This document shows, in pieces, positions 38,501 to 59,355 of a DNA stretch of 64,000 bases; position 1 is the first letter of the stretch; every line of letters starts with the position of its first letter. A program made the translations under genes and the position numbers. The stretch comes from Antedon mediterranea (taxonomy: Eukaryota; Animalia; Echinodermata). Under the pieces are notes generated by a model. The model made no database searches and had not been told where the DNA came from. It saw only the letters and a program-made list of their open reading frames with translations. Location of the stretch: positions 3,710,201-3,774,200 of the forward strand of contig NC_092670.1 in the NCBI RefSeq assembly GCF_964355755.1. Direction: 5' to 3'.

Positions 38501-41500
38501 GCCTGTATAAAAAAAAACTTTTATTTTCCTTTCAAAAACCGATTTTACTTTAAAAAAATCGACAATATATACATCAACAAATAGATTGCAAAACCCTTTC
38601 ATTACAACCACAAAAAAGTCTACAATATATTCTTCATCAATACATAGATAAACGATTTAACATTTGACATTTTGGTGAACTTCGATTAATTAATTTCCCT
38701 TAAAACACCTGTTGCAGGTGTTTTGATCAAATATGCAAATAATTAAAATCATATTTCAGGCCCAATGCACACAAGTTAAAAGATTTTTTAATTAGCGTTT
38801 AAGCTGCACTGACTCTTAATTTCCTCAAATTCAAATGTCAATGTGTCAAGTTTATTGCGGATCTAAATTACAAATACAAAAATATTTACAAAATCAGTAT
38901 TAAATTCAATGCTGGAATTATTAAAAAGAAATTATATAAAAAAAATGTATTGATATCAAATGTCTGACTCAAGAATATTTATATTAAAATTGTTTTAAAA
39001 ATTATCTACAACAATTTACGTTATTAAAAGCATTATTTTGGAAACGATTGAGTGCATCTTTAATAACTTTTATCATCTATTCAATAATACCACTTTCAAT
39101 AATCCTTGTAAATCATCAAGTAACCTGAATGGTTACTATGTCAACACATTGAGTAAACAATAATGCATGCTCCAATATTTGTTTAGTGTCTATACACTGT
39201 CTATTGTGTTCTAATATTACCAGTGAATGACAGGTTTTTTAATATCGTTTTTTGAGGTATGGTAAGTCTTGCGCAGACGAATAAAATGAAAATGGCATTT
39301 ATTCAAAGTAAAGAAAGGCTGTATTAATAATTTCTTCTATGACCACCTCACAAATTGACCAACAAAATTACAGTAATATTTGGTATCTTTTGGATAATTG
39401 TACTATAATGCTAGCTCAGCTGTCAAACACTCAAGCCATGTGACAGATTGAAATGGGACACACATATATATTTTATTTCATTAGTTTTTGTGTGAGGTGA
39501 GTCCCGTGTTCTCTGAACGACGTAGGGGAATGAGCTGTTAGGAGCTCATTGTACTAAGCCTCGGCATTATGTGGTAGGGTGGCCAGTTCCTTTCCACGCC
39601 GCCTTTTTTCTCCCTAGTATTTTCAACCAGGTACTCATTTATAGCTGAGTGGACTGGGAGTTGTCGGCAATTGAACCCGGGTCTATCTGTATGACAGTCA
39701 AGTGTCCTAGTTTCTGTGTACACTTTCCTTTTTGCATTTTTATCGTAATTTAAAAAATCATTTTTGTTTCTCTTTTGTGCATTCCATACCACTGTAGGCC
39801 TATCAACAGAGAGTGATCACATAATTTAGTCTATAATATGTTCTATGTTTTTGTTATGTAACTTTTTGTCTGTCTGTTGTCCTCCAGGCCTGAGTCAGCC
39901 ATAGATCAAAGGTTTGAAGAGCACATCAAACTACACCATCTCAAAAAACTGATGAAAAAGTTTGCTCAACACAAACCAGATGAGAACGAAAACATAGTTG
40001 TTCCTAAGTTGGACTACTATGCACCGAGCGGCCCGCCAATGAAGCGTCAGCCTGGCAACGTGAATGTGGCGGAGTTTAAGGAGATGATCGGGAGTTTGCT
40101 TGGCAACTCGGCATGGGATTCACAGATGGAGACACTTTTTGCAAAGGTGAGATAAACCTCACAGATTATCGCAGAGAGATCTGTGTAACAATTTGTCACC
40201 TTTTGTGTCGCACATACGTACTGTACAGCGGGTATTAGACAACATCACATAGATAACATAGTGCTCAACTTAAATTGTATCACATTAATCAATAGTAGAA
40301 AATCGGTACTCTGATTTTTATTTCATAGTCGTAGGCAGTTGAATATATTGCAGTTTTTTTTATTGAAAACATTTTATAATGTAAAATTTTGGAAATTACA
40401 AAATGGTTAGTTTTCTCGAAAACTGAATAAATTGTATTGCACAGAATTGTATTTTAATGTTAAATTATTCAAAAGAATATTTTGACTGTCAAATTGTTTT
40501 TTCAAAGGTTGACACATCAGCAGATGGTTATGTGGACTGGAACGAGTTCTGTACGTACATGCTGATGCAGCTTAGAGAAACTGACTACATGAGACTTAAG
40601 AAGTTTCTTCCATTCTCAGCAGATCCTAAGATAAGACACATTGTTCAAAATAGGGTAAGTAGAATACTTGAATTAAAATTAATTAAAATCAGGTTTTACG
40701 CCATATTACAAAATTTACGAATACGAGTATGTATACTAATCCAAAAACTGTAAAAATCCAATTATATATCTTACATTTTACAAAAAATATGATGCATTTT
40801 TTAGAGTTATAATTCCAGAGGATTGAACAAAAATTAGAGGGTTAGGAATATACTAGGACTGCATTAACAATGGATTGAACCAAATAGAAGTCTTTTGTTT
40901 TAATTGTATAGGAATCTGCTGAAAGGGATTGAAAGCTCAAATCCTGTAAAAATTATTGAATTGTAAATTTGGTTAAATTTTTTTTTAACGCAGCAAGAAT
41001 GTACGCATAGCATAACCTCAACAGAAAATCCAACCCGGTTCATCACACTTAGCAAAGAAGGAATTCTGGGAGTATTCGACTCACAGTTACACCTCGAAAA
41101 ATGGCATAAGGTCGTGTCAGAGAATGATGATCCACGTACTTCAAAACGACGATTTAAGACTTGGTACTCAGATATTGTTTACATGCCGAACGTACACAAA
41201 CTCGCAATAGCATCTACGGGACGAGATATACGGTTCTGGGATATTTCAACAAACTCTTATTTTGAAGATTTTCATTTATACGGTATAGAATATGCATATG
41301 GTTATATTAAAAGAGATAATTTATCATTATAAAATAGGCTATATAAAAAATTGACGGAAAATGTAATCATAAGAATTAATTGCAAATTCAGAGGTATAAA
41401 TGAGCGAAATGACAAAATAATTGTGAGATTAAATTGTTTTTTATATATATTTTTATAGCTTTGAATGATATGCCCATATGTATGGACTACTGGTATGACA

Positions 41501-42821
41501 AAAAGGTAATTATGTATTTCTAATTTGATAAGGTATGTAGGAGGGATCGTTGGAATTGAGTATTCCTTTGTTCAATTTAAAAATAAAATAATAATATTCA
41601 TTTGTAACAGAGAGCATGTCAATGTAGACATTCATTAATTGCATAATGAAATGCAATACAATCTCTATCAATTTTGGTGCCTATAATAAAGTAATACATA
41701 TTTTTTTTTCATACTAGAATCTTGCTGGTGAATCGTTACTAGTCGTTGGATTTGACATGGGGTCAATCCATCTGTTTTACTTCACTCAACCAATGACAAG
41801 CCTCTTTGCCACAATGTTCAAAGATGCTGAAGGCACTCAGAAGATTTGGACACAGGTGAGATCACATGATCTTGTTTGAAATTTCTGAATCCTTTTTGCA
41901 AAATTTTAGAGATTACTGTTTTATGGTTCTTTCATTGATCTTTAGGATTTACATCTCCATCAAAAGTTTGTGCGTCAAGTTGTGCTACCAAACATTCACA
42001 AGAACGAGATGGTGCGTAAAGTACGCTACATCCCAGAAAACGATTTCATTCTTTCGTCAAGCAGCAGCAACAAGACTTCGATGGTGATGATGGATATACA
42101 GGGCAAGAAGAAAACTTATGTTTTCAAATTGAGCAAGGTTGGTTGTAGGTTGAGTGAAGGGTCTTAGGCTAAGTAAAGAAGTGTCTTACTGCACTAAGTC
42201 TTGGTATTTTCTGGTGCGTTGGCCAGTTCCTTTTCATGCTGCCTTATCCTTTCAAGTTTTTTTCAACCAGATACTCTTTTACAGTTGAATAGACTGCAGG
42301 TTGTTTGGAATTTCAATCCAGGCCTTTTTTTAAAATCTAACCATTTATGGCTAGCGTGATTCTGGTTGAATAGGTTAGATGTAAAATGAAAAGAAAGGCT
42401 ATTACTGAAGATAAACTCTTGGGAATCATCTTTATCATACAGAAAAAAAAGTAAATTCAAATTCAAATAAATGCTATAAGATTTGCAAAAATAGCCTATG
42501 CCATGTAAAATATGAATACAATTTTTTTTGGTAAAACAAACACAATGTTAAAGTAAAGAAATAAAGCAAATAATGCCTTTATTTCATAGAATGACGATAT
42601 ACACTTCATTAAAAATGTTTTTCTTACAGGGCGTGGAATGTTTTGACTTCAACAAAACGTTAAACATGATCGCTACTGGAAGCATTGACCACTGTATACG
42701 TCTTTGGAACCCGTACGTAGAGGATAAACCAATTGCATTGCTGACAGGTCACATGATGTCCATTGTGGATGTAGTCATCCATGAACCATATCACCAGATA
42801 TTTAGTTATTCAAAAGATGGG
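32531..42821 (+). CDS. EF-hand + WD40 protein of the WDR49(CFAP337)/WDY/EFCAB8 family, 5' part (exons 32531-32545, 33393-33433, 39888-40146, 40508-40654, 40994-41282, 41459-41505, 41718-41855, 41946-42137, 42630-42821); remainder not in window
   Basis: In-frame splicing gives ...METLFAKVDTSADGYVDWNEFCTYM (EF-hand)...LAIASTGRDIRFWDI...GVECFDFNKTLNMIATGSIDHCIRLWNPY..PIALLTGHMMSIVDV (WD repeats). The last exon ends at a GTAAGT donor with no stop. The first two small exons are inferred from frame compatibility. Confidence 0.82.
33028..33350 (-). mobile_element. Full-length tRNA-headed SINE with Deu/Nin-like core domain
   Basis: Minus strand: GTGGCCGAGCGGTTAAG (A box), GGGTTCGAGGC (B box), core TCTTCTCGGATAAGGACTATAAACCGTAGGTCC...GAGTAGGGGGTTACCCCGGTGT resembling the AmnSINE/DeuSINE central domain, and a (TCAA)n tail. 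TAATAAT is duplicated on both flanks. Confidence 0.82.
33456..33578. mobile_element. Internally deleted copy of the MITE at 20573
   Basis: Shared acactatcaaactttatgtgac..atgtgatgt.cccatatatggacatgat..actaccatatttgggc..aaactagtt. Confidence 0.75.
34867..34944. promoter_or_regulatory. Two RFX X-box-like palindromes GTTGTCATGGAAAC (34867-34880, 34931-34944)
   Basis: Identical 14-mers matching the RFX consensus GTTRYCATGGNAAC, in an intron of a probable ciliary gene. Confidence 0.55.
37376..37389. promoter_or_regulatory. RFX X-box GTTGCCATGGAAAC
   Basis: Near-perfect consensus, upstream of a candidate alternative first exon. Confidence 0.6.
38072..38151 (+). CDS. Candidate alternative first coding exon of the WD40 gene (MHLQSRIMNRYQSFSSDSDSDSIDSF..)
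   Basis: ATG-initiated 80 nt ending in a consensus GTAAGT donor in phase 2, the phase required by the acceptor at 39888. Confidence 0.4.
39493..39712 (-). mobile_element. tRNA-derived SINE (core CCACTCAGCTATAAATGAGTACCTGG), best-preserved of three copies
   Basis: B-box-like CCGGGTTCAATTG on the minus strand followed by a conserved-SINE-like core. Relatives at 16625-16840 and 42180-42355. Confidence 0.7.
42180..42355 (-). mobile_element. Degraded copy of the same SINE family
   Basis: ggccagttcctttt.atgc.gcctt..tttcaaccag.tactc aligns with 39580-39650. Confidence 0.6.
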
Positions 42822-43130: not shown

Positions 43131-44540
43131 TTATTGGGAATCCAGAACAAAATAATGTGGAGGAGTTTCGTCATTATCAATGTTATCATCTCTTCTGTTC
43201 ATAACTTCATTTGTGCACCTCATTTTCTCAACCACAGTGCCAGACATAACATAGTCATTTTCAGCCTGTTGTTCTGCTGGTGTGTCATCAATTGTATAGT
43301 AAACATCTTCCTCAACAATGATTCCTGGAATGTCAGAAGTATCTTGGACCCTTGTGCCATTGTTCCTTTGATAACGCACAACATGTTGTGGTTTGTTGCA
43401 GCGTTTCTTCTTTAGTTGATAAAGTAACACAAGTACAACAATCATAAGTGTGATAGTACTTGTTGCCAGTGCCATTATGATTGTTCTATTGTTGTCACTT
43501 GCTGGATTGCATTTTTGGGATGTTGTTCGATATACCACTTTATTGTCAGTTGGTGTGATATTTTGGTCTTTTGGGTTGTTTTTCACATTGGTCGTTGCTT
43601 TAATACATTCAGTAGTGGATAAGATTTTGTTATCTTTGATTGTGAATTCAATCTCATCAGATCTGTTCAGAACCTCTGTACTCACCAGACACTTGGCAAT
43701 GTAATCACCAGCTGGTAAATTGTTGAAACATGTTTCATCTGTCTCTTGCTGGTAATCATTCTCTGCCATTACTTCTTCATTCAAACTCCAGTTGTAGATT
43801 TTCTTGCTACCAGATCCACCTGCTGCATAGCACTTGAAGCTATTCTGATTCACAGACATTTCAGACGTTTTATTTAACATCTTGACCTCCACCATTAATT
43901 GTGGGAGAACTTTTAATATCACAGTTTTGCACCAAGTTTCCCAACTGTTTGAATATGAAAGACAAGTGAAAAATATTGCTTCTCCGGAATAGAAACCCTT
44001 AATAGTCTGATTATAGGTTATATTATATGAACTATAAGACTGTGTGACATTGTACTTTCCTTGGATCCACCCAATTGTGACATCACATATGCGGTTATTT
44101 GGTACTATGATGATCTTACAAACAATTTGAACTTGCTTCCATTCTATAATGTTATCCAAACCTTCACAAGAAATGTGAATGTTATCCCCATCAGGTATTC
44201 TAAAATGGACATCATATGTAGGAACCAAATATTGTAACTTATCACCATCCTCACATGTGTATATTCCTTGTACTTGCTGTGCCTCAAAAGATATGAAAAG
44301 TGGACATCTAATTGTTAACTTTTTAAAGTAGTCTTTAAAGATAAGTAGCTTTTTCGAGTTGTCTACAGAGTACTTTGGAATAACCTGATATTGTTTATTT
44401 GCTGCTGGTAAAACTCTCACTGATTGCACAGAGGTGCTTGTGTAATAGTAAACATTATCAAATTCAACTAAACTTGCAGAAACTCCATTGGAAAATGGCA
44501 AGCACGCCAATACAAAGATCAAATACGTTTTAAAATTCAT
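43131..44540 (-). CDS. Ig-like single-pass receptor, copy 1 (ectodomain A + tail 1), ~469 aa, single coding exon
   Basis: First true ATG at 44540 gives signal peptide MNFKTYLIFVLACLPFSNGVSA. Ig-like motifs LTI..QGIYTC, VQIVC..IGW..FTC and FKC..YNW..GDYIAKC. TM segment IIMALATSTITLMIVVLVLLY followed by KKKR. Tail contains DVYYTI, NDYVM and PHYFVL. Confidence 0.85.
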   Translation of the reverse strand: MNFKTYLIFVLACLPFSNGVSASLVEFDNVYYYTSTSVQSVRVLPAANKQYQVIPKYSVDNSKKLLIFKDYFKKLTIRCPLFISFEAQQVQGIYTCEDGDKLQYLVPTYDVHFRIPDGDNIHISCEGLDNIIEWKQVQIVCKIIIVPNNRICDVTIGWIQGKYNVTQSYSSYNITYNQTIKGFYSGEAIFFTCLSYSNSWETWCKTVILKVLPQLMVEVKMLNKTSEMSVNQNSFKCYAAGGSGSKKIYNWSLNEEVMAENDYQQETDETCFNNLPAGDYIAKCLVSTEVLNRSDEIEFTIKDNKILSTTECIKATTNVKNNPKDQNITPTDNKVVYRTTSQKCNPASDNNRTIIMALATSTITLMIVVLVLLYQLKKKRCNKPQHVVRYQRNNGTRVQDTSDIPGIIVEEDVYYTIDDTPAEQQAENDYVMSGTVVEKMRCTNEVMNRRDDNIDNDETPPHYFVLDSQ

Positions 44541-46176
44541 GCTTCTTAGTGAAAATCTAAAATGGTCAACCAATGATTCAAGTGTTAAAACGTTTGGATG
44601 TGTAAAAGTGTTGGTTGATGATAAAATTTTTCTGAGATTATGCAATGGCTGTATTGAGGAAGTTGACTATACTATAATTATAGAATCTGAAAACTAAACT
44701 AAAATAAAAAATTGAGTTTTGTTTTTAGTTGGTCTATGTTTTTAATATTAGGTTTCTCACACTTAAATAGTACAATAATAAATATAATAAATGGGGTGAT
44801 TTTTACTGCCAATTTTCCTGAAAACTCATTTTGGAAGATTTACCAGTTATCAACTCAAGTAATAGACAATTAAAAATTTAAAAAATTATTAAATAAAAAA
44901 AAAAATTCTTGACAATCATTTAATCAATCCGAAATGTAAAATACATTACGCAATTTTCATAGAGTCATCGATAGGGATGTTAAAAATAAGAATTGTGTCG
45001 TGTTAGTTGATTATGATATTAAAAAGTACAATACAAAGCCAAAAGCAAAACAGTTTTTAACTTCAAGGGTGCCAATATAAAATTTTTATCATTGGAATGT
45101 TTGCATGGTGCAATCAATATCCCTAAGGTTGATCGAAAGAACATTGATCAAAACGTCAAAACAGTTCTTTTCAGCACTACATACGTGGTGTACTGCAAAC
45201 TTTATATTAATATAAGGTTTGTTTTCATAAAAAGTGAATTTTCCAGTTTTCCATCAAGGTCATTACAGAGTTTGAGACCAGATACAGATATAAAATAATG
45301 CGATCTTTTTAAGTGCAGCAAACAAAGTACAAATACTCAATAATAGATTAGTATACATGCATTTAATCATGCTCAAAAGTCTTAATATACAGTATTAACA
45401 ATTGATGTGGATAAGACTAGTGTGCTAACTGCAAATTGCCAAAAATAGTGATATTAAAATATTAAAGTATTTCAATTTGCAACAATGACCTTTGGGTGAG
45501 GTTACTAATTGAATAACATGGAGAATTTAAACACAGCAAAGAGAGAAACACTAATTTGCTCAGTAATATTACTGAAAATACTAGATGGAGCAGTAAATCC
45601 AAGAAAATCACATATTCTGATTTTAAATAATGTCTATTTACAATTGATATCTTTTTCAAAAACTCATTTCTCCCATTAGCATTTAGTTAGATATTTGGGA
45701 TGCTGAATGTAACAAGAACTTTGTTTAGATTTTGGAGAGGAGTTATGATTTAAACCCAAGAATTAATCTGTAGTTGTGTTTGTCTTCAGGTTTTTTTTTT
45801 AATCTGTCTAAGTTACTTTATATTTACAAATGATCAAGATTTTCTAGAGAAGGCCTTAACATTTATGCAAATTTGGTAATCATGCCTTATAACTACTTTA
45901 CATTATCATACAGAACCATTTTCTACAGTGGTGATTTACAAATTAATAAACTCTACAAAATGTTTTAAAATAATGTTTGCTACATTACTGTGTAAACTGT
46001 TATAAAAGTACTATTGTTTTTTTGTTGCTTAATCTTAAAAATGGAGACAATTTGGACATTTTCATTCATAAGTTTAATTATTAAAAACCTCACTTTCCAT
46101 TTCTTCTGTGATGTTATTCGGTGTAATTTTAAAAGATTGTTTAGCTTTTACTGATATAAGTTGTGAACATGTTTGA

Positions 46177-47469
46177 TTACTTGTCGACGGTATCTCCATC
46201 TTTGATTTCACAATACAATGCATCAATGCTTGTTTCTGGTTGTTGTTGTCTTCTAGATGTGTTTGCAATTGTTATACTGTAATTTTGTTGTTCCACTTTG
46301 GTATCTGCAACATCAGAAGTTTCGTAGACAGTATTTCTTTGATAAAACACTTCTGGTTGATGTTTGTTGTCATGTTTCCTGTTGTCATGTTTCCTTTTTA
46401 GTATGTAGAGAAACAAAATGAAGACAATAACCATCAGTGTCATAGTACTTGTTGCTAGAACCATTATGAGTATTTTATCACTGCTCCTTTTCTGTTTGTT
46501 GTTGATATCATTCACCTTGTTGTAGTTTTGGGAATTTGTCACTCTGTCTACTGACATGTCGACATCTTTAATTGTGAATTCTACCTCATCAGATCTGATC
46601 TGAACCTCAGCACTCACCAGACACTTGACAGTGTAATCAGCTGGTAAATTGTTAAAACATCTTTCATCTGTCTCTTGCTGGTAATCATTCTGTGTCACTC
46701 CTTCTCCATTCAAACTCCAGTTGTAGATTTTCTTGCTACCAGATCCACCTGCTGCATAGCACTTAAAGCAATTCTGATTCACAGACATTTCAGACGTTTC
46801 ATATAACCTCTTGACCTTCACCATTAATTGTGGGAGAACTTTTAATATCACAGTTTTGCACCTAGTTTCCCAACTGTTTGAATATGAAAGACAAATGAAA
46901 AATATTGCTTCTCCGGAATAGAAACCCTTAATAGTCTGATTATAGGTTATATTATATGAACTATAAGACTGTGTGACATTGTACTTTCCTTGGATCCACC
47001 CAATTGTGACATCACATATGCGGTCATTTGGTACTATGATGATCTTACAAACAATTTGAACTTGCTTCCATTCAATAATGTTATTCAAACCTTCACAAGA
47101 AATGTGAATGTTATCCCCTTCAGGTATTCTAAAATGGACATCATATGTAGGAACCAAATATTGTAACTTATCACCATCCTCACAGGTGTATATTCCTTGT
47201 ACTTGCTGTGCCTCAAAAGATATGAAAAGTGGACATCTAATTGTTAACTTTTTAAAGTAGTCTTTAAAGATAATTAGCTTTTTGAAGTTGTCTACAGAGT
47301 ACTTTGGAATAACCTGATATTGTTTATTTGCTGCTGGTAAAACTCTCACTGATTGCACAGAGGTGCTTGTGTAATAGTAAACATTATCAAATTCAACTAA
47401 ACTTGCAGAAACTCCATTGGAAAATGACAAGCACGCCAATACAAAGATCAAATACGTTTTAAAATTCAT
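46177..47469 (-). CDS. Ig-like single-pass receptor, copy 2 (ectodomain A + tail 2), ~430 aa
   Basis: Ectodomain nearly identical to copy 1. After EFTIK the stalk, TM and tail match copies 3, 4 and 6 (..ILIMVLATSTMTLMVIVFILFLYILKRK..TVYETS..QNYSITI..DALYCEI). Confidence 0.85.
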   Translation of the reverse strand: MNFKTYLIFVLACLSFSNGVSASLVEFDNVYYYTSTSVQSVRVLPAANKQYQVIPKYSVDNFKKLIIFKDYFKKLTIRCPLFISFEAQQVQGIYTCEDGDKLQYLVPTYDVHFRIPEGDNIHISCEGLNNIIEWKQVQIVCKIIIVPNDRICDVTIGWIQGKYNVTQSYSSYNITYNQTIKGFYSGEAIFFICLSYSNSWETRCKTVILKVLPQLMVKVKRLYETSEMSVNQNCFKCYAAGGSGSKKIYNWSLNGEGVTQNDYQQETDERCFNNLPADYTVKCLVSAEVQIRSDEVEFTIKDVDMSVDRVTNSQNYNKVNDINNKQKRSSDKILIMVLATSTMTLMVIVFILFLYILKRKHDNRKHDNKHQPEVFYQRNTVYETSDVADTKVEQQNYSITIANTSRRQQQPETSIDALYCEIKDGDTVDK

Positions 47470-49106
47470 GCTTCTTAGTGAAAATCTAAAATGGTCAACC
47501 AATGATTCAAGTGTAAAACGTTTGGATGTGTAAAAGTGTTGGTTGATGATAAAATTTTTCTGAGATTATGCAATGGCTGTATTGAGGAAGTTGACTATAC
47601 TATAATTATAGAATCTGAAAACTAAACTAAAATAAAAAATTGAGTTTTGTTTTTAGTTGGTCTATGTTTTTAATATTAGGATTCTCACACTTAAATAGTA
47701 CAATAATAAATATAATAAATGGGGTGATTTTTACTGCCAATTTTTCTTAAAACTCATTTTGGAAGATTTACCAGTTATCAACTCAAGTAATAGACAAATT
47801 AAAAATTAAAAAAATTATTAAATAAAAAAAAAAATTCTTGACAATCATTTAATCATCCGAAATGTAAAATACATTATGCAATTTTCATTAGAGTCATCGA
47901 TAGGGATGTTAAAAATAAGAATCGTGTCGTGTTAGTTGATTATGATATTAAAAAGTACAATACAAAGCCAAAAGCAAAACAGTTTTTAACTTCAAGGGTG
48001 CCAATATAACATTTTTATCATTGGAATGTTTGCATGGTGCAATCAATATCCCTAAGGTTGATCGAAAGTACATTGATCAAAACGTCAAAACAGTTCTTTT
48101 CTGCACTACATACGTGGTGTACTGCAAACTTTATATTAATATAAGGTTTGTTTTCATAAAAAGTGAATTTTTCAGTTTTCCATCAAGGTCATTACAGAGT
48201 TTGAGACCAGATACAGATATAAAATAATGCGATCTTTTTAAGTGCAGCAAACAAAGTACAAATACTCAATAATAGATTAGTATACATGCATTTAATCATG
48301 CTCAAAAGTCTTAATATACAGTATTAACAATTGATGTTGATAAGACTAGTGTGCTAACTGCAAATTGCCAAAAATAGTGATATTAAAATATTAAAGTATT
48401 TCAATTTCCAACAATGACCTTTGGGTGAGGTTACTAATTGAATAACATGGAGAATTTAAACACAGCAAAGAGAGAAACACTAATTTGCTCAGTAATATTA
48501 CTGAAAATACTAGATGGAGCAGTAAATCCAAGAAAATCACATATTCTGATTTTAAATAATGTCTATTTACAATTGATATCTTTTTCAAAAACTCATTTTT
48601 CCCATTAGCATTTAGTTATATATTTGGGATGCTGAATGTAACAAGAACTTTGTTTAGATTTTGGAGAGGAGCTATGATTTAAACCCAGGAATCAATCTGT
48701 AGTTGTGTTTGTCTTCAGGTTTTTTTTTTTAATCTGTCTAAGTTACTTTATATTTACAAATGGTCAAGATTTTCTAGAGAAGGCCTTAACATTTATGCAA
48801 ATTTGGTAATCATGCCTTATAACTACTTTACATTATCATACAGAACCATTTTCTACAGTGGTAATTTACAAATTAATAAACTCTACAAAATGTTTTAAAA
48901 TAATGTTTGCTACATTACTGTGTAAACTGTTATAAAAGTACTATTGTTTTTTTTTTGCTTAATCTTAAAAATGGAGACAATTTGGAAATTTTCATTCATA
49001 AGTTTAATTATTAAAAACCTCACTTTCCATTTCTTCTGTGATGTTATTCGGTGTAATTTTAAAAGATTGTTTAGCTTTTACTGATATAAGTTGTGAACAT
49101 GTTTGA

Positions 49107-50417
49107 TTACTTGTCGACGGTATCTCCATCTTTGATTTCACAATACAATGCATCAATGTTTGTTTCTAGTTGTTGTCTTTTAGATGTGTTTGCAATGGTT
49201 ATACTGTAGTTTTGTTGTTCCACTTTGGTATCTGCACCATCAGAAGTTTCGTAGACAGTATTTCTTTGATAAAACACTTCTGGATGATGTTTGTTGTCAT
49301 GTTTCCTGTTGTCATGTTTCCTGCTGTCATGTTTTCTTTTTAGTATGTAGAGAAACAAAATGAAGACAATAACCATCAGTGTGATAGTACTTGTTGCTAG
49401 AACCGTTATAATTATTTTATCACTGCTCCTTTTCTGTTTTTTATTGATATCATTCACCTTGTTGTAGTTTTGGGAAGTTGTCACTCTGTCTACTGACATG
49501 TCGACATCTTTAATTGTGAATTCTACCTCATCAGATCTGATCTGAACCTCAGCACTCACCAGACACTTGACAGTGTAATCACCAGCTGGTAAATTGTTAA
49601 AACATCTTTCATCTGTCTCTTGCTGGTAATCATTCTGTGTCATTCCTTCTCCATTCAAACTCCAGTTGTATATTTTCTTGCTACCAGATCCACCTGCTGC
49701 ATAGCACTTGAAGCAATTCTTATTCACAGAGTTTTCAGATGTTGCATATAACTTCTTGACCTCCACCATTAATTGTTGAAGAACTTTTAATATCACAGTT
49801 TTGCACCAAGTTTCCCAACTGTTTGATAATGAAAGACAAATGAAAAATATTGCTTCTCCAGAATAAAAACCATTAATAGTCTGATTATAGGTTATATTAT
49901 ATAAACTATAAGACTGTGTGACATTGTACTTTCCTTGGATCCACCCAATTGTGACATCACATATGCGGTCATTTGGTACTATGATGATCTTACAAACAAT
50001 TTGAACTTGCTTCCATTCTATAATGTTATTCAAACCTTCACAAGATATGTGAATGTTATCCCTTTCATGTATTCTAAAATGCACATCAGATGAAGGAACC
50101 AAATATTGTAACTTATCACCATCCTCACATGTGTATATTCCTTGTACTTGCTGTGCCTCAAAAGATATGAAAAGTGGACATCTAATTGTTAACTTTTTAA
50201 AGTAGTCTTTAAAGATAAGTAGCTTTTTGAAGTTGTCTATTACAGAGTACTTTGGAATAACCGGATATTGTTTATTTGCTGCTGGGAAAACTCTCACTGA
50301 TTGCACAGAGGTGCTTGTGTAATAGTAAACATTATCAAATTCAACTAAACTTGCAGAAACTCCATTGGAAAATGACAAGCACGCCAATACAAAGATCAAA
50401 TACGTTTTAAAATTCAT
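49107..50417 (-). CDS. Ig-like single-pass receptor, copy 3 (ectodomain A + tail 2), ~436 aa
   Basis: Intact ORF from MNFKTY; paralog of copy 2 with scattered substitutions and one extra RKHDN unit. Confidence 0.85.
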   Translation of the reverse strand: MNFKTYLIFVLACLSFSNGVSASLVEFDNVYYYTSTSVQSVRVFPAANKQYPVIPKYSVIDNFKKLLIFKDYFKKLTIRCPLFISFEAQQVQGIYTCEDGDKLQYLVPSSDVHFRIHERDNIHISCEGLNNIIEWKQVQIVCKIIIVPNDRICDVTIGWIQGKYNVTQSYSLYNITYNQTINGFYSGEAIFFICLSLSNSWETWCKTVILKVLQQLMVEVKKLYATSENSVNKNCFKCYAAGGSGSKKIYNWSLNGEGMTQNDYQQETDERCFNNLPAGDYTVKCLVSAEVQIRSDEVEFTIKDVDMSVDRVTTSQNYNKVNDINKKQKRSSDKIIITVLATSTITLMVIVFILFLYILKRKHDSRKHDNRKHDNKHHPEVFYQRNTVYETSDGADTKVEQQNYSITIANTSKRQQLETNIDALYCEIKDGDTVDK

Positions 50418-51009
50418 GCTTCTTAGTGAAAATCTAAAATGGTCAACCAATGATGCAAGTGTTAAAATGTTTGGATGTGTAAAAGTGTTGGTTCATGATC
50501 AAATTTTTCTGAGATTATGCAATGGCTGTGTTGAGGAAGTTGACTGTTATATAGAATCTGAAAACTAAACTAAATTTAAAAATTTAGTTTTGTTTTTAGT
50601 TGGTCTATGTTTTTAATATTAGGTTTCTCACACTTAAATAGTACAATAGTAAATAAATAATAAATGGTTCTATTTTTACTGCCAATTTTTCTGAAAACTC
50701 ATTTCGGAAGATTTACCAGTTATCAACTCAAGTAAATTTAAACAATTAAAAATTTAAAAAAGTATTAAATAAAAAAAATAAAAATTCTTGACAATCATTT
50801 AATCAATCAAAATGTAAAATACATTATGCAATTTTCATAAATAGAGTCATCGATAGGGATCTTAAAGATAAGATTCTTGTTGTGTTAGTTGATTATGATA
50901 TTAAAAAGTACACTACAAAGCCAAAAACATAACAGTCTAACCTCAAGGGCACCAATATAAGATTTTGTTTTGTTTGAATGTTTGCATGGTGCAATAAATA
51001 TGTCCTGAG

Positions 51010-51977
51010 CAGGGGTGGACCCAGGGGGCAACACCCTTAATTTCATACTAAATGTTTTTTTCTGCCACTAAGTTAAAATTTAGATTCCATTTCATCATAT
51101 TATGTATTAACCATTAACGTTATAGAAGAAGTCTAGGGTTGGAAATTATTAAGACTATAGGCTTATGTAAATTGACAGACTGCAGTGTAAAATAACCAGC
51201 CATCAAAGATACAGTGCATAATTATTTACCGGCGGTCAGCGTTTTTGTTGTTTGTTGACTGTTTGGATTGCTTGTGTGCATGAAGGTACGAAAGGCCGCT
51301 ACGTGGTAAACCCCGTCATATGGGTCGTTGATTTCTCCATAATCATTGCATTTTGCCGGGGATTCCCCATAATTTAAATATTTCCGTAGTACCATATTTA
51401 TCTTCATTTCCCTACGTCCGTAATATTTGGGCAAATTTCCGTAATAATTACGGATGTTCCGAACTTTGAAATAACAGCGTTTAATTGATTCTTTCTGCAA
51501 ATTTCGATCATATTTTCTTTTCTGGAGTGTGGTTGTACAGTTTATAGTGGATAAATGAAAATGAATTTGGAAATTGTGGGTTTACTGATTTATTTAGCAT
51601 TTATTTCAAAATAATACAATTTAACGTTTTGCTCAATATTTTTATAGCAGCAGCTTCACATTTTTTTTCTAAATTGTTTTAATTATTAATTGATAATAAA
51701 TAATATATTAATTGATTTTAATTGCTAGAATTTATTACATTACCGGAAGTACCTTCGTCGGGCACCTCCTCTGAAATTCGCATTGAATGCAAAAAATGTT
51801 ATCCTTTGTTTGTCGATTGTGTTTTACCGGCGGAAAAAACAGGAGTGATACGATCTGTTTGCTACTGTAGCCCGATTTTTGTGAATTTTATGTGCGAGAT
51901 TACCATTTCCGGCCATCTAGGCGTGTCATTTAACAAAAATGGGCAAACCCCTTAAAATAGTCCTGCGACCGCCCCTG
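51010..51977. mobile_element. Non-autonomous hAT-like element with 5-bp TSD (CTGAG)
   Basis: Termini CAGGGGTGGACCCAGG / CCTGCGACCGCCCCTG with CTGAG on both sides. The empty site (atatccctaaggttgat) is visible in the paralogous spacers near 45120 and 48050. Confidence 0.85.
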
Positions 51978-52887
51978 CTGAGGTTGATTGAAGCACATTG
52001 ATCAAAACGTCAAAAAACTCAACAGTCCTTTTCAGCACTACATATGTGGTTTTTATAAAACGTTAACAAAGAAAGTGAATTTTTAAGTTTTCCATCAAGA
52101 TCATTACAGAGTTTGGGACCAGATACAGAAATAAAATATTGCGATCTTTTTTAAGTGCAGCAAAAAAAAAAGTACAATTACTCAATACTAGATTAGTATA
52201 CAAGCATTCATTCATGTTCAAAAGTCTTGATATATTAACAATTGATGTTGAAAGACTAGTGTGCTAACTGTAAATTGCCAATTTGCAACAATGACCTTTG
52301 GGTGAGGTTACTAATTGAACAACATGGAGCATTTAAACACAGCAAAGAGAGAAACACTAATTTGCTCAGTAATATTACTGAAAATACTAGATGGAGCAGT
52401 AAATCCAAGAAAATCACATATTCTGATCTTAAATAATGACTATTTACAAATGATATCTTTTTTTAAAAACTTACTTCTCCCATTAGCATTTAGTTATATA
52501 TTTGGGATGCTGAATGTAACAAGGAGAACTTTGTTTAAATGTTGGCGAGGAGCTATGATTTAAACCCAAGAATCAATCTTTAGTTTTGTACATCTTCAGG
52601 TTTTTTTGTGTTAATCTTTCAAAGTTACTTTATATTTACAAATGGTAAAGATTTTCTAGAGAAGGCCTAAAAAATGTATGCAAATGTGGTAATCATGCCT
52701 ACACTACTTTGCATTATCATACATAACCATTTTCTACATGGTAATTTACAAATTAATAAACTCTACAAAATGTTTTACAAATAATGTTTACACTGTTTAA
52801 ACTGTTATAAAAGTACTTTAATTTTTAAAATTGGAGACAATTCGTTCAGTGTTTCTTTATAAATTATATATATTCATGTTTTTATGT

Positions 52888-54298
52888 TTAATTAGTAAAA
52901 ACCTCACAGTTTTCCATTTCTTCTGTGATATTGTTATTCGGTGTAATTTTAAGATATTGTTTAGCTTCTTGTACTGCTTTTACTGATATAAGTTGTGTAC
53001 TTGTTTGTTTACTTGTTGAAGGTTTCTCCTTCTTGTTGATTTCACAATACAATGCATCAATGTTTGTTTCTGGTTGTTGTATTTTAGATGTGTTTGCAAT
53101 TGTTATACTGTAGTTTTGTTGTTCCACTTTGGTTTCTGCAACATCAGAAGTTTCATAGTCAATGTTTCTTTGATAAAGCACTTGTTGATGTTTGTTTTCA
53201 TGTTTCCTGCTTTCATGTTTCCTTTTTAGTATGTAGAGAAACAGAATGAAGACAACAACCATCAGTGTTATAGTACTTGTTGCTAGAACTAATATGAGTA
53301 TTTTATCACTGCTCCTTTTCTGTTTGATGTTGATATCGTTCACCTTGTTGTAGTTCTGGGAAGTTGTCACTCTGTCTACTGACATGCCAACATCTTTAAT
53401 TGTGAATTCTACCTCATCAGATCCTTTCTGAACCTCTGCAGTCACCAGACATTTGACAGTGTAATCACCAGCTGGTAAATTGTTAAAACATCTTCCATCT
53501 GTCTCTTGCTGGTCATCATTCTCTGTCATTCCTACTTCATTCAAACTCCAGTTGTAGATTTTCTTGTGACTAGATCCACCTGCTGCATAGCACTTAAAGT
53601 AATTCAGATTCACTGCCGAGACTTCAGACGTTACATATAACCTCTTGACCTCCACCATTGATTGTGGGTGAACCTTCAATATCAATGTGTAACACCAAGT
53701 TTTAAAATTGTTGTTTTTTGATAATCTTGAAATACAGCAGAAAAATATACCTTCTCCAGAATAAAAACCATAAATCTTATAGTTTATACTGCCATTGTTC
53801 GTATTTAAAATATAATTATAAGATTGTGTACTTTTGTAAGTTCCTTGTATCCAACCAATTGTGACTTCATTTTTAAAATCATTGCTGATATTACACTTAA
53901 TTTGTACTTCCTCTCCTTCAACAATGTCTTTCAAACCTTCACATGAAACCTGTTTAAAGTTATTTGTCCGTGCAACACCAGATGAAGCAACCAAATACTG
54001 TAGCTTGTCACTATCCTCACAGGTGTATATTCCTTGTACTTCCTGTGCAGCAAAAGATATGAAAAGTGGACATCTAATTGTAATTGACTTCTCTATCAAA
54101 TAGTGTTTAAAGATATACTGAGTATCATTGTTTAGGACAGTAAAATCTTCTCCCGTGGTATTCTTTATTTGCAGGTACAATTGTCACAGATTGTTTAAAG
54201 TTTGATGAGTAATAATAATACATATTATGCTCAAGCAAACTTTCTGAAGCTCCTAAGTTGATCAATACAAAGATGATGTTACAGTAAATTATATTCAT
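52888..54298 (-). pseudogene. Ig-like receptor copy 4 (ectodomain B + long tail 2), frameshifted
   Basis: ATG at 54298 gives MNIIYCNIIFVLINLGASESLLEHNMYYYYSSNFKQ. An 11-nt deletion near 54157 relative to copy 6 (AGTTGTTTCTA missing) shifts the frame to an early TGA. The downstream ~420 codons are still open. Confidence 0.8.
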
Positions 54299-55404
54299 CT
54301 TTAAAATGTACTTTGCTTCAACAGTTTGTGAAATTCTAATGCACTCATTGACTATTGTTTGTACTTATGTTTGATTAATAGAAACTTAATTGATAGATTT
54401 AACATGATTCTTTATTTCTGTGACTATATTTAGAAAACAAACAAACCTTGTATTTGCAAAGATGCTTTGATTAAGTTGTACAAAGTTTATATAGTTTTGG
54501 TTTTCATATGCGATATTGAAATCTAGATTTAGCATGAGTCAGCGTTCAACACACTTTCTGTCAATAGCAACTGTTTTTTATTTTATTCAGGTATAAAAAT
54601 ATACAAAAAATAGCCAAGGCTAAAAGTAATGCATCTACAAAGGTTTAAAACAAAATTAGGACTATGAAAATATAAACTTTAAAGAGTATTTACAATGATT
54701 TGAAATTGAAAACATAAAAAACTAAAAATAGTGCCTATTGTGTGTCATATAGAATATATATATACAGTATACTATAGCATAGGTGAATTCACGGGACCCA
54801 CATTTTTTGGTATGATGACATTATTAAAATCAAACTTGAAGATAACAATTTCGAAAGATAATGATTTGAGCAAAAAGATATAAGATTTGGAAGAAAATTG
54901 GACATGTAGAAGTGTGGTACACATTCTTTTAAATTTGTATAACTTTGACAAAAGAGATGAAAAAAACTACTTTTTAAATTCAACTGGCCATATGATAATG
55001 TTACAACATCCGATATGCTTAATTTGTATATGGATTCATATCTATATTTCAGCAGCTTTTATAGTGAGTTATAAACATCTAGTTCACCTTTAATTCTGAA
55101 GAGCAGTAAGATATTCAAATATATGGTGTAGGTGAAATTATCCGACATCAATTTGTTCAAATTTTTAGCTGTGATTACATCGTCAAAATGAAAACAACTA
55201 ATGAGAAAGATAATTGATTGAGCTAGCACATATTAGAATTTGAGGGAAAATCGGGCACAAATAAGTTTTAAGCTAATGTTAATGAATGAGAAATGTTGAT
55301 AATAAAAGAGCTGCAACTCCGAGGCCAGTAAACACATAGAAGGAAAACATTATTTATGCCTTAGGTGAAAAAAATACTGTAATTACCAGAAACGTATGAT
55401 TCAA

Positions 55405-56805
55405 TTACTGGGAATCCAGAACAAAATAATGTGGAATTTCGTCATTATCAATGTTATCATCTCTTCTGTTCATAACTTCATTTGTGCACCTCATTTTCTC
55501 AACCACTGTGCCAGACATAACATAGTCATTTTCAGCCTGTTGTTCTGCTGGTGTGTCATCAATTGTATAGTAAACATCTTCCTCTTCAATGGTTCCTGGA
55601 ATGTCAGAAGTCTCTTGGACCCTTGTGCCATTGTTCCTTTGATAACACATGACATGTTGTGGTGTGTTGCAGCGTTTCCTCTTGAGTTGATAAAGTAACA
55701 GAAGTACAGCAATAATCAGTATAACAGTAATTGTTGCCCGTGCCATTGTGGTTGTTTTACTGTTGTTATCACTAGCTGGATTGCAATTTTTTGGTGTTGT
55801 CTGAAACACTTTGTTAGTTGGTGTGATATTTGGGTCTTGGTTGTTTTTCACATCTGCTGTTGCTATACACTCAGCAGTGGTACAGATATGTTTACCTTTG
55901 ATTGTGAATTCAATCTCATCAGATCTACTCTGAACCTCTGTACTCACCAGACACTTGACAGTGTAATCACCAGCCGGTAAATTGTTAAAACATCTTTCAT
56001 GTGTCTCTTGCTGGTAATCATTCTGTGTCATTCCTTCTTCATTCAAACTCCAGTTGTAGATTGTCTTGCTCCCAGATCCACCTGCTGCATAGCACTTGAA
56101 GCAATTCTGATTCACAGACATTTCAGACGTTTCATATAACCTCTTGACCTTCACCATTAATTGTGGGAGAACTTTTAATATCACAGTTTTGCACCTAGTT
56201 TCCCAACTGTTTGAATATGAAAGACAAATGAAAAATATTGCTTCTCCGGAATAGAAACCCTTAATAGTCTGATTATAGGTTATATTATATGAACTATAAG
56301 ACTGTGTGACATTGTACTTTCCTTGGATCCACCCAATTGTGACATCACATATGCGGTTATTTGGTACTATGATGATCTTACAAACAATTTGAACTTGCTT
56401 CCATTCTATAATGTTATTCAAACCTTCACAAGAAATGTGAATGTTATCCCCATCAGGTATTCTAAAATGGACATCATATGTGGGAACCAAATATTGTAAC
56501 TTATCATCATCCTCACATGTGTATATTCCTTGTACTTGCTGTGCATCAAAAGATATGAAAATTGGACATCTAATTGTTAACTTTTTAAAGTAGTCTTTAA
56601 AGATAAGTAACTTTTTGGAGTTGTCTTTTACAGAGTACTTAGGAATAACCTGATATTGTTTATTTGCTGCTGGTAAAACTCTCACTGATGGCACAGAGGT
56701 GCTTGTGTAATAGTAAACATTATCAAATTCAACTAAACTTGCAGAAACTCCATTGGAAAATGACAAGCACGCCAATACAAAGATCAAATACGTTTTAAAA
56801 TTCAT
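55405..56805 (-). CDS. Ig-like single-pass receptor, copy 5 (ectodomain A + tail 1), ~466 aa
   Basis: Intact ORF with the same signal peptide. Tail nearly identical to copy 1 (..DVYYTIDD..NDYVMS..IPHYFVLDSQ); stalk and TM diverged. An extra in-frame ATG lies at 56892. Confidence 0.85.
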   Translation of the reverse strand: MNFKTYLIFVLACLSFSNGVSASLVEFDNVYYYTSTSVPSVRVLPAANKQYQVIPKYSVKDNSKKLLIFKDYFKKLTIRCPIFISFDAQQVQGIYTCEDDDKLQYLVPTYDVHFRIPDGDNIHISCEGLNNIIEWKQVQIVCKIIIVPNNRICDVTIGWIQGKYNVTQSYSSYNITYNQTIKGFYSGEAIFFICLSYSNSWETRCKTVILKVLPQLMVKVKRLYETSEMSVNQNCFKCYAAGGSGSKTIYNWSLNEEGMTQNDYQQETHERCFNNLPAGDYTVKCLVSTEVQSRSDEIEFTIKGKHICTTAECIATADVKNNQDPNITPTNKVFQTTPKNCNPASDNNSKTTTMARATITVILIIAVLLLLYQLKRKRCNTPQHVMCYQRNNGTRVQETSDIPGTIEEEDVYYTIDDTPAEQQAENDYVMSGTVVEKMRCTNEVMNRRDDNIDNDEIPHYFVLDSQ

Positions 56806-57392
56806 GCTTCTTAGTGAAAATCTAAAATGGTCAACCAATGATTCAAGTGTTAAAACGTTTGGATGTGTAAAAGTGTTGGTTGATGATAACATTTTTCTGA
56901 GATTATGCAATGGCTGTGTTGAGGAAGTTAACTGTTATATAGAATCTGAAAACTAAACTAAAATTAAAAATTGAGTTTCGTTTTTAGTTGGTCTATGTTT
57001 TTAATAGGTTCTCACACTTAAATAGTACAATAATAAATAAATAATAAATGGTTCTATTTTTACTGTCAATTTTTCTGAAAACTCATTTCGGAAGATTTAC
57101 CAGTTATCAACTCAAGTAATTTAAACAATTAAAAATTAAAAAAAGTATTAAATAAAAAAATAAAAAATTCTTGACAATCATTTAATCAATCAAAATGTAA
57201 AATACATTATGCAATTTTCATAAATAGAGTCATCGATAGGGATCTTAAAGATAAGAATCTTGTTGTGTTAGTTGATTATGATATTAAAAAGTACACTACA
57301 AAGCCAAAAACATAACAGTCTAACCTCAAGGGCACCAATATAAGATTTTGTTTCGTTTAAATGTTTGCATGGTGCAATAAATATGTCCTGAG

Positions 57393-58413
57393 CAGGGGTG
57401 GACCCAGGGGGCAACACCCTTAATTTCATACTAAATGTTTTTTTCTGCCACTAAGTTAAAATTTAGATTCCATTTCATCATATTATGTATTAACCATTAA
57501 CGTTATAGAAGTCTAGGGTTGGAAATTATTAAGACTATAGGCTTATGTAAATTGACAGACTGCAGTGTAAAATAACCAGCCATCAAAGATACAGTGCATA
57601 ATTACTGTATTTACCGGCGGTCAGCGTTTTTGTTGTTTGTTGACTGTTTGGATTGCTTGTGTGCATGAAGGTACGAAAGGCCACTACGTGGTAAACCCCG
57701 TCATATGGGTCGTTGATTTCTCCATAATCATTGCATTTTGCCGGGGATTCCCCATAATTTAAATATTTCCCTAGTACCATATTTATCTTCATTTCCCTAC
57801 GTCCGTAATATTTGGGCAAATTTCCGTAATAATTACGGACGTTCCGAACTTTGAAATAACAGCGTTTAATTGCTTCTTTCTGCAAATTTCGATCATATTT
57901 TCTTTTCTGGAGTGTGGTTGTACAGTTTATAGTGGATAAATGAAAATGAATTTTGGAAATTGTGGGTTTACTGATTTATTTAGAATTTATTTCAAAATAA
58001 TACAATTTAACATTTTGATCAATATCTTTATAGCAGCAGCTTCACATTTTTTTCTAAATTGTTTTTTTTTAAAAATTAATTGATAATAAATAATATTATT
58101 AATTGATTTTAATTGCTAGAATTTATTACATTACCGGAAGTACCTTCGTCGGACACCTCCTCTGACATTCGCATTGAACGCAAAAAATGTTATCCTTTGT
58201 TTGTCGATTGTGTTTTACCGGCGGAAAAAACAGCCGTGATACGATCTGTTTGCTACTGTAGCCCAATTTATTGTGAATTTTATGTGCGAGATTACCATTT
58301 CGGCCATCTAGGCGTGTCATTTAACAAAAATGCCCTCGCCACAGGCCCCAGTATCTACAACCCTGTGAGGACTCTTGGGCAACCCCCTTAAAATAGTCCT
58401 GCGACCGCCCCTG
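57393..58413. mobile_element. Second copy of the hAT-like element at the paralogous site
   Basis: Same termini, same CTGAG TSD and same flanks as 51010-51977, so it was duplicated along with its host segment. Confidence 0.85.
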
Positions 58414-59355
58414 CTGAGGTTGATTGAAGCACATTGATCAAAACGTCAAAAAACTCAACAGTCCTTTTCAGCACTACATATGTGGTGTACCCCAAACTTT
58501 ATATTAATATAAGGTTTGTTTTTATAAAAAGTTAACAAAGAAAGTGAATTTTTAAGTTTTCCATCAAGATCATTACAAAGTTTGGGACCAGATACAGAAA
58601 TAAAATATTGCGATCATTTTTAAGTGCAGCAAAAAAAAATACAATTACTCAATACTAGATTAGTATACAAGCATTTATTCATGTTCAAAAGTCTTGATAT
58701 ATTAACAATTGATGTTGAAAGACTAGTGTGCTAACTGTAAATTGCGAATTTGCAACAATGACCTTTGGGTGAGGTTACTAATTGAACAACATGGAGCATT
58801 TAAACACAGCAAAGAGAGAAACACTAATTTGCTCAGTAATATTACTGAAAATACTAGATGGAGCAGTAAATCCAAGAAAATCACATATTCTGATCTTAAA
58901 TAATGACTATTTACAAATGATATCTTTTTTAAAAAACTTACTTCTCCCATTAGCATTTAGTTATATATTTTGGATGCTGAATGTAACAAGGAGAACTTTG
59001 TTTAAATTTTGGCGAGGAGCTATGATTTAAACCCAAGAATCAATCTTTAGTTTTGTACATCTTCAGGTTTTTTTGTGTTAATCTTTCAAAGTTACTTTAT
59101 ATTTACAAATGGTAAAGATTTTCTAGAGAAGGCCTAAAAAATGTATGCAAATGTGGTAATCATGCCTACACTACTTTGCATTATCATACATAACCATTTT
59201 CTACATGGTAATTTACAAATTAATAAACTCTACAAAATGTTTTAAAAATAATGTTTACACTGTTTAAACTGTTATAAAAGTACTTTAATTTTTAAAATTA
59301 GAGACAATTCGTTCAGTGTTTCTTTATAAATTATATATATTCATGTTTTTATGTT

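What the first reader, a model, noticed from the sequence alone, without database searches (positions are those of the whole stretch)
46074..50417. Copies 2 and 3 look like anti-Lepore hybrids: A-type ectodomain joined to the B-gene tail
Seen: the array reads A1, A2, A2, B2, A1, B2. The ancestral unit appears to be the pair B2->A1, still present as copies 6->5; the 3' flanks of copies 1 and 5 match (43010 vs 55267). Copies 2 and 3 have the A N-terminus but the stalk, TM, tail and 3' flank of B. The switch falls in the third domain shared by A and B (KCYAAGGS..CFNNLPAGDYTVKCLV..EFTIK). Inference: unequal crossover in this shared block created receptors that pair a near-identical ectodomain with a different intracellular output, like paired receptors. 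Both parental B genes are broken, so tail 2 now survives only in the hybrids within this window.
Basis: partly seen in the sequence, partly recalled or inferred. Interest (0 to 1): 0.8.

Follow-up and report, generated by a model that had tools for sequence, protein, structure and literature searches.

The report
Feather-star hybrid Ig-like receptor genes
Two genes in a feather-star gene row are hybrids that join the outer part of one predicted cell-surface receptor to the shortened inner tail of its broken neighbour, a familiar result of uneven crossing-over that here would give a likely signalling receptor an untested dampening twin.

Summary
The hybrids are real. Six single-exon genes lie on the minus strand inside an intron of a CFAP337-like gene of an Antedon-like feather star; in transcription order they read B6, A5, B4, H3, H2, A1. 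Copies 2 and 3 (H2, H3) follow A at 164 and 156 of 169 diagnostic sites, then B at 94 and 97 of 101. The switch lies within 13 bases at the end of domain 3, a block homogenised between A and B (dS 0.08-0.19 against about 0.8 on both sides). Three corrections. (1) The tail came from a B lineage 7-8% away from both surviving B genes and is cut about 40 residues short. (2) Pair 6-5 is not an untouched ancestor. (3) Divergence ages fit a Lepore-type deletion in a B-A-B'-A' array at least as well as an anti-Lepore duplication. The proteins are an uncharacterised, divergent Ig-like family. A tails carry a conserved hemITAM-like motif that the hybrids lack; no tail has a canonical ITIM. Expression, ligand and other haplotypes were not tested. 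The process is well known (FCGR2C, Dantu glycophorin, globin fusions, Botryllus FF); the family seems undescribed.

The parts
39886..42821 (+). Exons of the host gene, CFAP337-like (WD40, EF-hand); the array lies in the intron that opens at the GT donor after 42821
   Evidence: tblastn of P0003 (Antedon mediterranea): residues 17-439 at 39886-42824, 93-100% identity in four of six pieces; no hit for residues 440-1174 in the window; donor seen
43131..44540 (-). Copy 1, A1: intact 469-aa predicted type I membrane protein with tail 1
43290..43313 (-). hemITAM-like motif EEDVYYTI in tail 1 (same motif in A5 at 55561-55584)
   Evidence: definition from PMC12582321 passages
44541..46073 (-). Spacer type S2, between H2 and A1
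46074..46176 (-). Remnant of the long B tail behind the H2 stop, still open in the B frame
46177..47469 (-). Copy 2, H2: intact 430-aa hybrid, A ectodomain with B-lineage stalk, membrane helix and shortened tail
46584..46596 (-). A-to-B switch in H2, last strand of domain 3
47470..49003 (-). Spacer type S2, between H3 and H2, 1.4% from the other S2
49107..50417 (-). Copy 3, H3: intact 436-aa hybrid, with two small B-like patches in domains 1 and 2
49526..49538 (-). A-to-B switch in H3
50418..52887 (-). Spacer type S1, between B4 and H3, carrying a 1-kb insertion (about 51006-51978) with short inverted ends and a target duplication, absent from S2
52888..54298 (-). Copy 4, B4: broken by one 11-base deletion near 54157, otherwise open to its stop, with the full 112-aa tail 2
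54299..55264 (.). Unique junction J between the A5 3' flank and the B4 start; no second copy in the window
55405..56805 (-). Copy 5, A5: intact 466-aa gene with tail 1; stalk and membrane helix differ from A1, distal tail nearly identical
56806..59354 (-). Spacer type S1, between B6 and A5, with the same 1-kb insertion (about 57389-58414)
59355..61110 (-). Copy 6, B6: pseudogene (insertion 60548-60916, stops at 60157 and 59474, 1-base deletion near 60141)

Best explanation
H2 and H3 are hybrid genes that join the ectodomain of receptor A to the stalk, membrane helix and shortened tail of a B-lineage gene; the join was most likely made by one unequal crossover in the homogenised domain 3, likely a Lepore-type deletion within an already doubled B-A-B'-A' array, and the hybrids would act as untested non-activating twins of the hemITAM-like A receptors. 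Steps: (1, shown) A and B are old paralogues whose domain 3 was later homogenised. (2, inferred) The B-A pair doubled at about 8-14% divergence. (3, inferred) A crossover between the upstream A and the downstream B' fused them at the end of domain 3. (4, inferred) This haplotype recombined with the undeleted one near the B 5' end, giving B6-A5-B4-H-A1. (5, shown as a 1.4% duplicate) The hybrid and its spacer doubled after a 2-base deletion had shortened the tail. (6, shown) Both B genes are broken. (7, inferred, about 0.35) The hybrids bind what A binds but lack its triacidic tyrosine motif, so they would compete with or dampen A signalling.
For: Single sharp switch shared by both hybrids. dS A vs B 0.53-0.70 (N-terminus), 0.76-0.82 (domain 2), 0.08-0.19 (domain 3), 0.83-0.99 (tail); H vs B tail 0.10-0.16. 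Repeat unit tail 2 + spacer + A ectodomain is collinear in all four copies, in two types: S1 vs S2 7.6-8.1%, S1 vs S1 22 of 1425, S2 vs S2 21 of 1529. Like-for-like ages of the A1/A5 and H/B splits match: tail dS 0.166 vs 0.10-0.16; first 3' flank 17 of 123 vs 14 of 105, p=1.0. The B4/B6 5' ends are older than their spacers (10 of 196 vs 22 of 1425, p=0.003), as a crossover near the B 5' end predicts. Tail 1 motif EEDVYYTI appears in 0.16-0.29% of 20000 shuffles and lies in a stretch with 1 of 138 nonsynonymous and 2 of 36 synonymous differences between A1 and A5; tail 2 has no such motif.
Against: The A1/A5 3' flank (13.8%) is more diverged than the whole S1/S2 spacer (7.9%), p=0.027, which would let the pair doubling predate the spacer split. 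Shared derived sites do not tie the hybrid ectodomain to A5 over A1 (H2 3 vs 1, H3 1 vs 1). Patchy exchange blurs dating: B4 and B6 differ by 45 of 768 in domain 3 and tail but 3 of 413 in front, and A1 shares more membrane-helix sites with tail 2 than A5 does. Rooted tree tests with P0002 are weak: front domains reject other groupings at p about 0.03, the tail does not (p=0.15), and domain 3 protein favours H with B. The hemITAM-like motif has I, not L, at +3 and was picked after reading the definition. Tail 2 shows little constraint (H vs B tail pN 0.06-0.08, pS 0.08-0.16). No reads, RNA or second haplotype were examined.
Confidence: 0.52

Rival explanations
1. Anti-Lepore duplication: a crossover between B and A of one pair made B-H-A at about 8% divergence; the upstream B6-A5 pair comes from a separate doubling of similar age, and its middle 4.7 kb was later overwritten or swapped.
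For: Order B4-H-H-A1 is the anti-Lepore arrangement (definition in PMC4041002 passages); spacer duplicated in register; A1/A5 flank slightly older than S1/S2 spacers, p=0.027.
Against: Needs two independent duplications of nearly equal age plus a 4.7-kb conversion or two extra crossovers to make the S1 copies 1.5% apart; like-for-like ages are equal.
Confidence: 0.33
2. No crossover fusion: H descends from a second B gene whose 5' flank and ectodomain were overwritten by gene conversion from A, without change in copy number.
For: Small conversion-like patches occur in H3, A1 and B4; conversion can mimic both fusion types (PMC4041002 passages).
Against: The sequence upstream of H3 never returns to a B-type 5' flank: it runs A-type and then into the B 3' flank for 2.5 kb, 1.5% from the B6-A5 spacer.
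Confidence: 0.07
3. Part of the copy number is an assembly artefact: two alleles placed in tandem (H2 beside H3, or B6-A5 beside B4-H3). The hybrid type would remain real, its doubling not.
For: The young duplicates are 1.4-1.5% apart, a level that alleles of a marine invertebrate can reach (own knowledge).
Against: No N in the window; junction J is unique sequence joining the A5 flank to the B4 start; H tails and S2 spacers have no other source in the window.
Confidence: 0.06
4. Function axis, independent of origin: the hybrids are recent, weakly constrained by-products on the way to decay, with no paired-receptor role.
For: Tail 2 is broken or shortened in all four copies; pN close to pS in tail 2; ectodomain dN/dS among A-type genes runs from about 0.4 to 1.1.
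Against: Both hybrids keep open frames with signal peptide and membrane helix, their other coding indels are multiples of three, and they keep all four shared tail tyrosines, while both B genes broke.
Confidence: 0.4

Closest known systems
FCGR2C (PMC6563257, passages)
   Same: Hybrid receptor from unequal crossover, ectodomain of one paralogue and tail of the other, linking two collinear duplicated modules; further copy-number change follows.
   Different: Parents there have defined ITIM and ITAM tails and known ligand, and are multi-exon; here the join is inside a single coding exon, the motifs are non-canonical and the ligand is unknown.
Dantu glycophorin DUP4 (10.1101/083634, passages)
   Same: Two tandem hybrid genes joining one gene's outside to the other's membrane and inside parts, loss of a full parental gene, at least four crossovers needed.
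   Different: A human polymorphism with measured benefit; here status in the population and any benefit are unknown and the tail is further shortened.
Beta-globin Lepore and anti-Lepore fusions in laurasiatherian mammals (PMC4041002, passages)
   Same: Fusion gene between its parents; in hedgehogs a parent was inactivated and the fusion gene re-duplicated, the pattern seen here.
   Different: Soluble globins with promoter capture as the point; here an outside/inside swap of a membrane protein, and the route (gain or loss) is unresolved.
Botryllus Fester family and FcoR (PMC12582321, passages)
   Same: Invertebrate deuterostome Ig-superfamily receptor clusters that mix ectodomains and intracellular parts by intergenic recombination; tails with hemITAM, ITIM and core YxxI/L/V motifs.
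   Different: No sequence link was found or tested; those genes are multi-exon and tied to allorecognition, and some carry canonical ITIMs.
Uncharacterised Antedon mediterranea proteins XP_071957072.1 (P0001) and XP_071950092.1 (P0002)
   Same: Only full relatives found; same cysteine and tryptophan pattern; P0002 has the same layout and a tail that weakly resembles the long B tail.
   Different: 34-52% identity, so distant paralogues, not orthologues of A, B or H; they cannot show the ancestral gene order.

Membership tests
Hybrid gene from unequal crossover | One switch of ancestry between two paralogues inside a stretch of high similarity | tested here: met
   164 and 156 of 169 A-type sites before, 94 and 97 of 101 B-type sites after; 13-base interval in domain 3
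Hybrid gene from unequal crossover | Flanks follow the parents and the intergenic segment is repeated in register | tested here: met
   Four collinear units of tail 2, spacer and A ectodomain
Anti-Lepore duplication | 5' part from the downstream parent, 3' part from the upstream parent, hybrid flanked by both parents | tested here: met
   B4-H3-H2-A1 in transcription order; B4 is now broken
Anti-Lepore duplication | Arose by copy gain from a two-gene haplotype, not by deletion from a longer array | tested here: inconclusive
   Ages fit a deletion from B-A-B'-A' at least as well; no second haplotype or orthologous locus available
Lepore-type deletion fusion | An upstream A donor and a separate downstream B lineage existed before the fusion | tested here: inconclusive
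   A5 lineage and H-tail lineage are of matching age, but the hybrid ectodomain is not clearly closer to A5 than to A1
Paired receptors | Closely similar ectodomains on neighbouring genes | tested here: met
   H vs A 92-99% DNA identity in domains 1-2 and 90-95% in domain 3; H3 ectodomain protein 88-89% to A1 and A5
Paired receptors | One member with a canonical ITIM, [ILVS]xYxx[IVL] | tested here: not met
   None in seven tails scanned; nearest is ALYCEI in tail 2 (consensus from 10.1101/2022.03.04.482883 passages)
Paired receptors | One member with an ITAM, a hemITAM or a charged membrane residue | tested here: inconclusive
   No ITAM and no strict hemITAM; A1 and A5 have EEDVYYTI with I at +3; no charged residue inside the H helices, an Arg at the outer edge of the A5 helix
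Paired receptors | Shared ligand, co-expression, opposite signalling | not testable with these tools
   Needs expression and cell assays
Immunoglobulin superfamily | Tandem beta-sandwich domains with B- and F-strand cysteines and C-strand tryptophan | tested here: inconclusive
   Family profile matches NCAM2 chain 2wim_A at E=4e-4 over positions 44-245, aligning these residues in domain 2 and the start of domain 3; models show beta-sandwiches at pLDDT 60-75 for domains 2-3 but under 50 for domain 1; fold hits are mixed Ig-like folds; no Pfam family over its cut-off

The most novel reading that the evidence does not exclude
A crinoid has built, within a few percent of sequence divergence, a paired-receptor system by recombination: activating receptors with a hemITAM-like tail and hybrid twins with the same binding domains and a dampening tail, with domain 3 kept uniform as a standing swap point between outsides and insides. 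It would extend CLEC-2-like and NK-style paired signalling to echinoderms (CLEC-2 recalled, not from a call).
Probability: 0.2. Interest if true: 0.65.

Novelty: new member of a known kind. Interest (0 to 1): 0.38.

Why it matters
The rearrangement itself is a textbook kind. Its value is as a compact, datable example in a poorly studied deuterostome group: an undescribed Ig-like receptor family whose single-exon genes swap outsides and insides through one homogenised domain, with a conserved hemITAM-like tail on one side. If expressed together, A and H would be a simple test of whether activating/dampening receptor pairs arise by recombination in echinoderms as they do in mammals and Botryllus.

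Tried and rejected
No whole genome was held, so other loci of this genome could not be searched. Sequencing runs: nine holders listed, no RNA holder listed; none was laid, so they are no evidence on expression, haplotypes or relatives. No orthologue of A, B or H was found: 2 hits among 2266 and among 5959 candidates; 8 hits in the 1.84-billion representative library, of which P0001, P0002 and a 133-aa fragment P0008 look like family members and the other five look like compositional or generic Ig-like matches (P0012 not read). P0008 is about equally close to the A and B N-termini (41% and 42%). P0002 lies on a contig of the same length as the host gene's orthologue, but at 34% identity it was not taken as the syntenic orthologue. 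Idea that the 3' flank of B and H hides the rest of a P0002-like tail: 12 frames tested, best p=0.06, rejected. An intron that would repair B4 or B6 was looked for by eye and not found. Rooted topology tests were too weak to decide. Fold searches gave only generic Ig-like sandwiches (best Z 9.3, rmsd 2.3, 97 aligned). Atlas features for P0002 gave Ig-type clusters at 0.89-0.91, a lead only. In some searches the B-frame stop of H3 was set two bases off (49002 for 49004; seen); this shifts segment ends by two bases only. Literature searches listed no paper on this family or on genes nested in CFAP337/WDR49; subscription journals are mostly not covered, and no supplements were read.
Full report
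Setting. The window is AT-rich eukaryotic DNA without N. Exons at 39886-42824 on the + strand match residues 17-439 of a CFAP337-like protein of Antedon mediterranea at 93-100% identity in four of six pieces; residues 440-1174 have no hit in the window and the last exon ends at a GT donor. So the organism is an Antedon-like feather star and the array most likely sits in a large intron of this gene, on the opposite strand.

Anatomy. Six genes with single-exon coding regions read, in transcription order, B6 (61110-59355), A5 (56805-55405), B4 (54298-52888), H3 (50417-49107), H2 (47469-46177), A1 (44540-43131). A1, A5, H2 and H3 are open (469, 466, 430, 436 aa) with a hydrophobic N-terminus, three cysteine-bearing domains, a stalk, one membrane helix and a tyrosine-bearing tail. 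B4 has one 11-base deletion that stops it after 57 residues; B6 has an insertion, two stops and a 1-base deletion. A splice-acceptor-like sequence lies about 140 bases before each A-type start, so a 5' untranslated exon probably exists; it was not located.

The hybrids are real. At gap-free columns where A1=A5 differ from B4=B6, H2 follows A at 164 of 169 sites and H3 at 156 of 169 up to the end of domain 3; after it they follow B at 94 and 97 of 101 (the last poorly aligned columns were left out). The switch is the same in both and lies between 46596 and 46584 in H2 and 49538 and 49526 in H3. A and B are old paralogues (dS 0.53-0.70 at the N-terminus, 0.76-0.82 in domain 2, 0.83-0.99 in the tail), but domain 3 is young between them (dS 0.08-0.19). 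That homogenised block is where misalignment could occur. Treating H as the unrecombined ancestor would need two chimeras and two lost donors. Trees agree in branch lengths, but rooted tests with the distant P0002 are weak: significant for the front domains (p about 0.03), not for the tail (p=0.15), and contrary for domain 3 protein. The case rests on site patterns and distances.

History. The repeated unit is tail 2 + spacer + A ectodomain, in four collinear copies. There are two spacer types: S1 (B6-A5, B4-H3), with a 1-kb insertion, and S2 (H3-H2, H2-A1), without it. S1 and S2 differ by 7.6-8.1%; the S1 copies by 22 of 1425 sites; the S2 copies by 21 of 1529. So the hybrid tail comes from a B lineage distinct from both surviving B genes, and pair 6-5 is not an untouched ancestor. 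The A1/A5 split is as old as the H/B split when like is compared with like: tail dS 0.166 against 0.10-0.16, first 3' flank 17 of 123 against 14 of 105. The 5' ends of B4 and B6 are older than the DNA just behind them (10 of 196 against 22 of 1425, p=0.003). One doubling of the B-A pair followed by three crossovers explains all of this: fusion of the upstream A to the downstream B' (a Lepore-type deletion), recombination with the undeleted haplotype near the B 5' end, and doubling of the hybrid. The anti-Lepore route gives the same order but needs two duplications of similar age and a 4.7-kb overwrite. Against the deletion route: the A1/A5 flank is more diverged than the spacers as a whole (p=0.027), and shared derived sites do not tie H to A5 (3 vs 1 and 1 vs 1). 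Patchy exchange in H3, A1 and B4 blurs all dates. I put the routes at about 0.52 and 0.33.

Tails. Tail 1 (92-93 aa) and tail 2 are homologous in their first half (p=0.0015 by shuffling). A 2-base deletion shared by H2 and H3 shortens tail 2 to 73 and 77 aa against 112 in B4. Behind the new stop the old frame is still open, with three indels of 12, 3 and 3 bases, so the long tail was kept until recently. The lost part weakly resembles the P0002 tail (p=0.013 for a segment chosen by eye). All four shared tyrosines are kept. No tail has a canonical ITIM or ITAM. A1 and A5 carry EEDVYYTI, which matches the hemITAM pattern [E/D]3-x-YxxL of PMC12582321 (passages) except for I at +3; it arises in 0.16-0.29% of shuffles, though I tested it after reading the definition. 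The distal tail 1 is conserved between A1 and A5 (1 of 138 nonsynonymous, 2 of 36 synonymous) while their stalks are not. Tail 2 has one YxxI (YCEI) in the hybrids and little sign of constraint. The likeliest working model is an activating A receptor and a hybrid twin that binds the same ligand without that motif. This is inference, about 0.35; decay without function is about as likely.

Family. Pfam gives nothing over cut-off. Only two full relatives were found, both uncharacterised A. mediterranea proteins at 52% and 34%, plus one 133-aa fragment. A profile of the ectodomains matches NCAM2 at E=4e-4 with the expected cysteines and tryptophans aligned. Models are of low confidence (mean pLDDT 51 and 55) but show beta-sandwiches for domains 2 and 3; fold searches return mixed Ig-like folds. 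I call it a divergent Ig-like family, membership of the Ig superfamily likely but not settled.

Comparison. Outside/inside hybrids from unequal crossover are known: FCGR2C (PMC6563257, passages), Dantu with two tandem hybrids and at least four crossovers (10.1101/083634, passages), globin fusions with loss of a parent and re-duplication of the fusion (PMC4041002, passages), KIR hybrids (PMC2816608, listing and start of abstract only) and Botryllus FF/FcoR (PMC12582321, passages). The finding works like these. It is a member of the class of crossover hybrids; it is not shown to be anti-Lepore in origin and fails the canonical ITIM test for paired receptors. Searches listed no paper on this family.

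Limits. One assembled haplotype only; no reads, RNA or orthologous locus were examined, so copy number, fixation of the B4 lesion and expression are open. Verdict: observation confirmed, interpretation partly supported, new member of a known kind, interest 0.38.

Noticed in passing
window 51006-51978 and 57389-58414: A 1-kb insertion with short inverted ends and a TCA/CTCAG target duplication, present in both S1 spacers and absent from S2; looks like a non-autonomous DNA transposon (Harbinger-like label recalled, not tested). It holds a 119-130 aa ORF with no Pfam match.
   Followed up: partly
window 61223-64000: Nested direct and inverted repeats (61607-62377 vs 64000-63228, 90%) right upstream of B6; may have displaced its upstream region.
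   Followed up: no
window 43438-43500 (A1 membrane helix): A1 shares the tail-2 base at 18 stalk-to-tail sites where A5 differs, against 7 the other way, clustered in the membrane helix; either conversion from a tail-2 gene or fast change in A5, which has an Arg at the helix edge.
   Followed up: partly
window 53038-53667 vs 59502-60122: B4 and B6 differ by about 6% in domain 3 and tail but under 1% just before and 1.5% just after, a sign of a further exchange patch.
   Followed up: partly
window 59474: B6 has its own premature stop close to where the hybrids' tails end, an independent shortening of tail 2.
   Followed up: no
window 12410-13043 and 15480-16179: A 630-base inverted pair at 92% with internal repeats of about 165 bases.
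   Followed up: no
window 21845-22398: Seven near-perfect copies of a 79-base unit.
   Followed up: no
window 19416-20438 (-) and 29392-29865 (-): Two ORFs that read like parts of a sphingosine- or ceramide-kinase-type gene (label recalled; Pfam gave no match over cut-off for the first).
   Followed up: no
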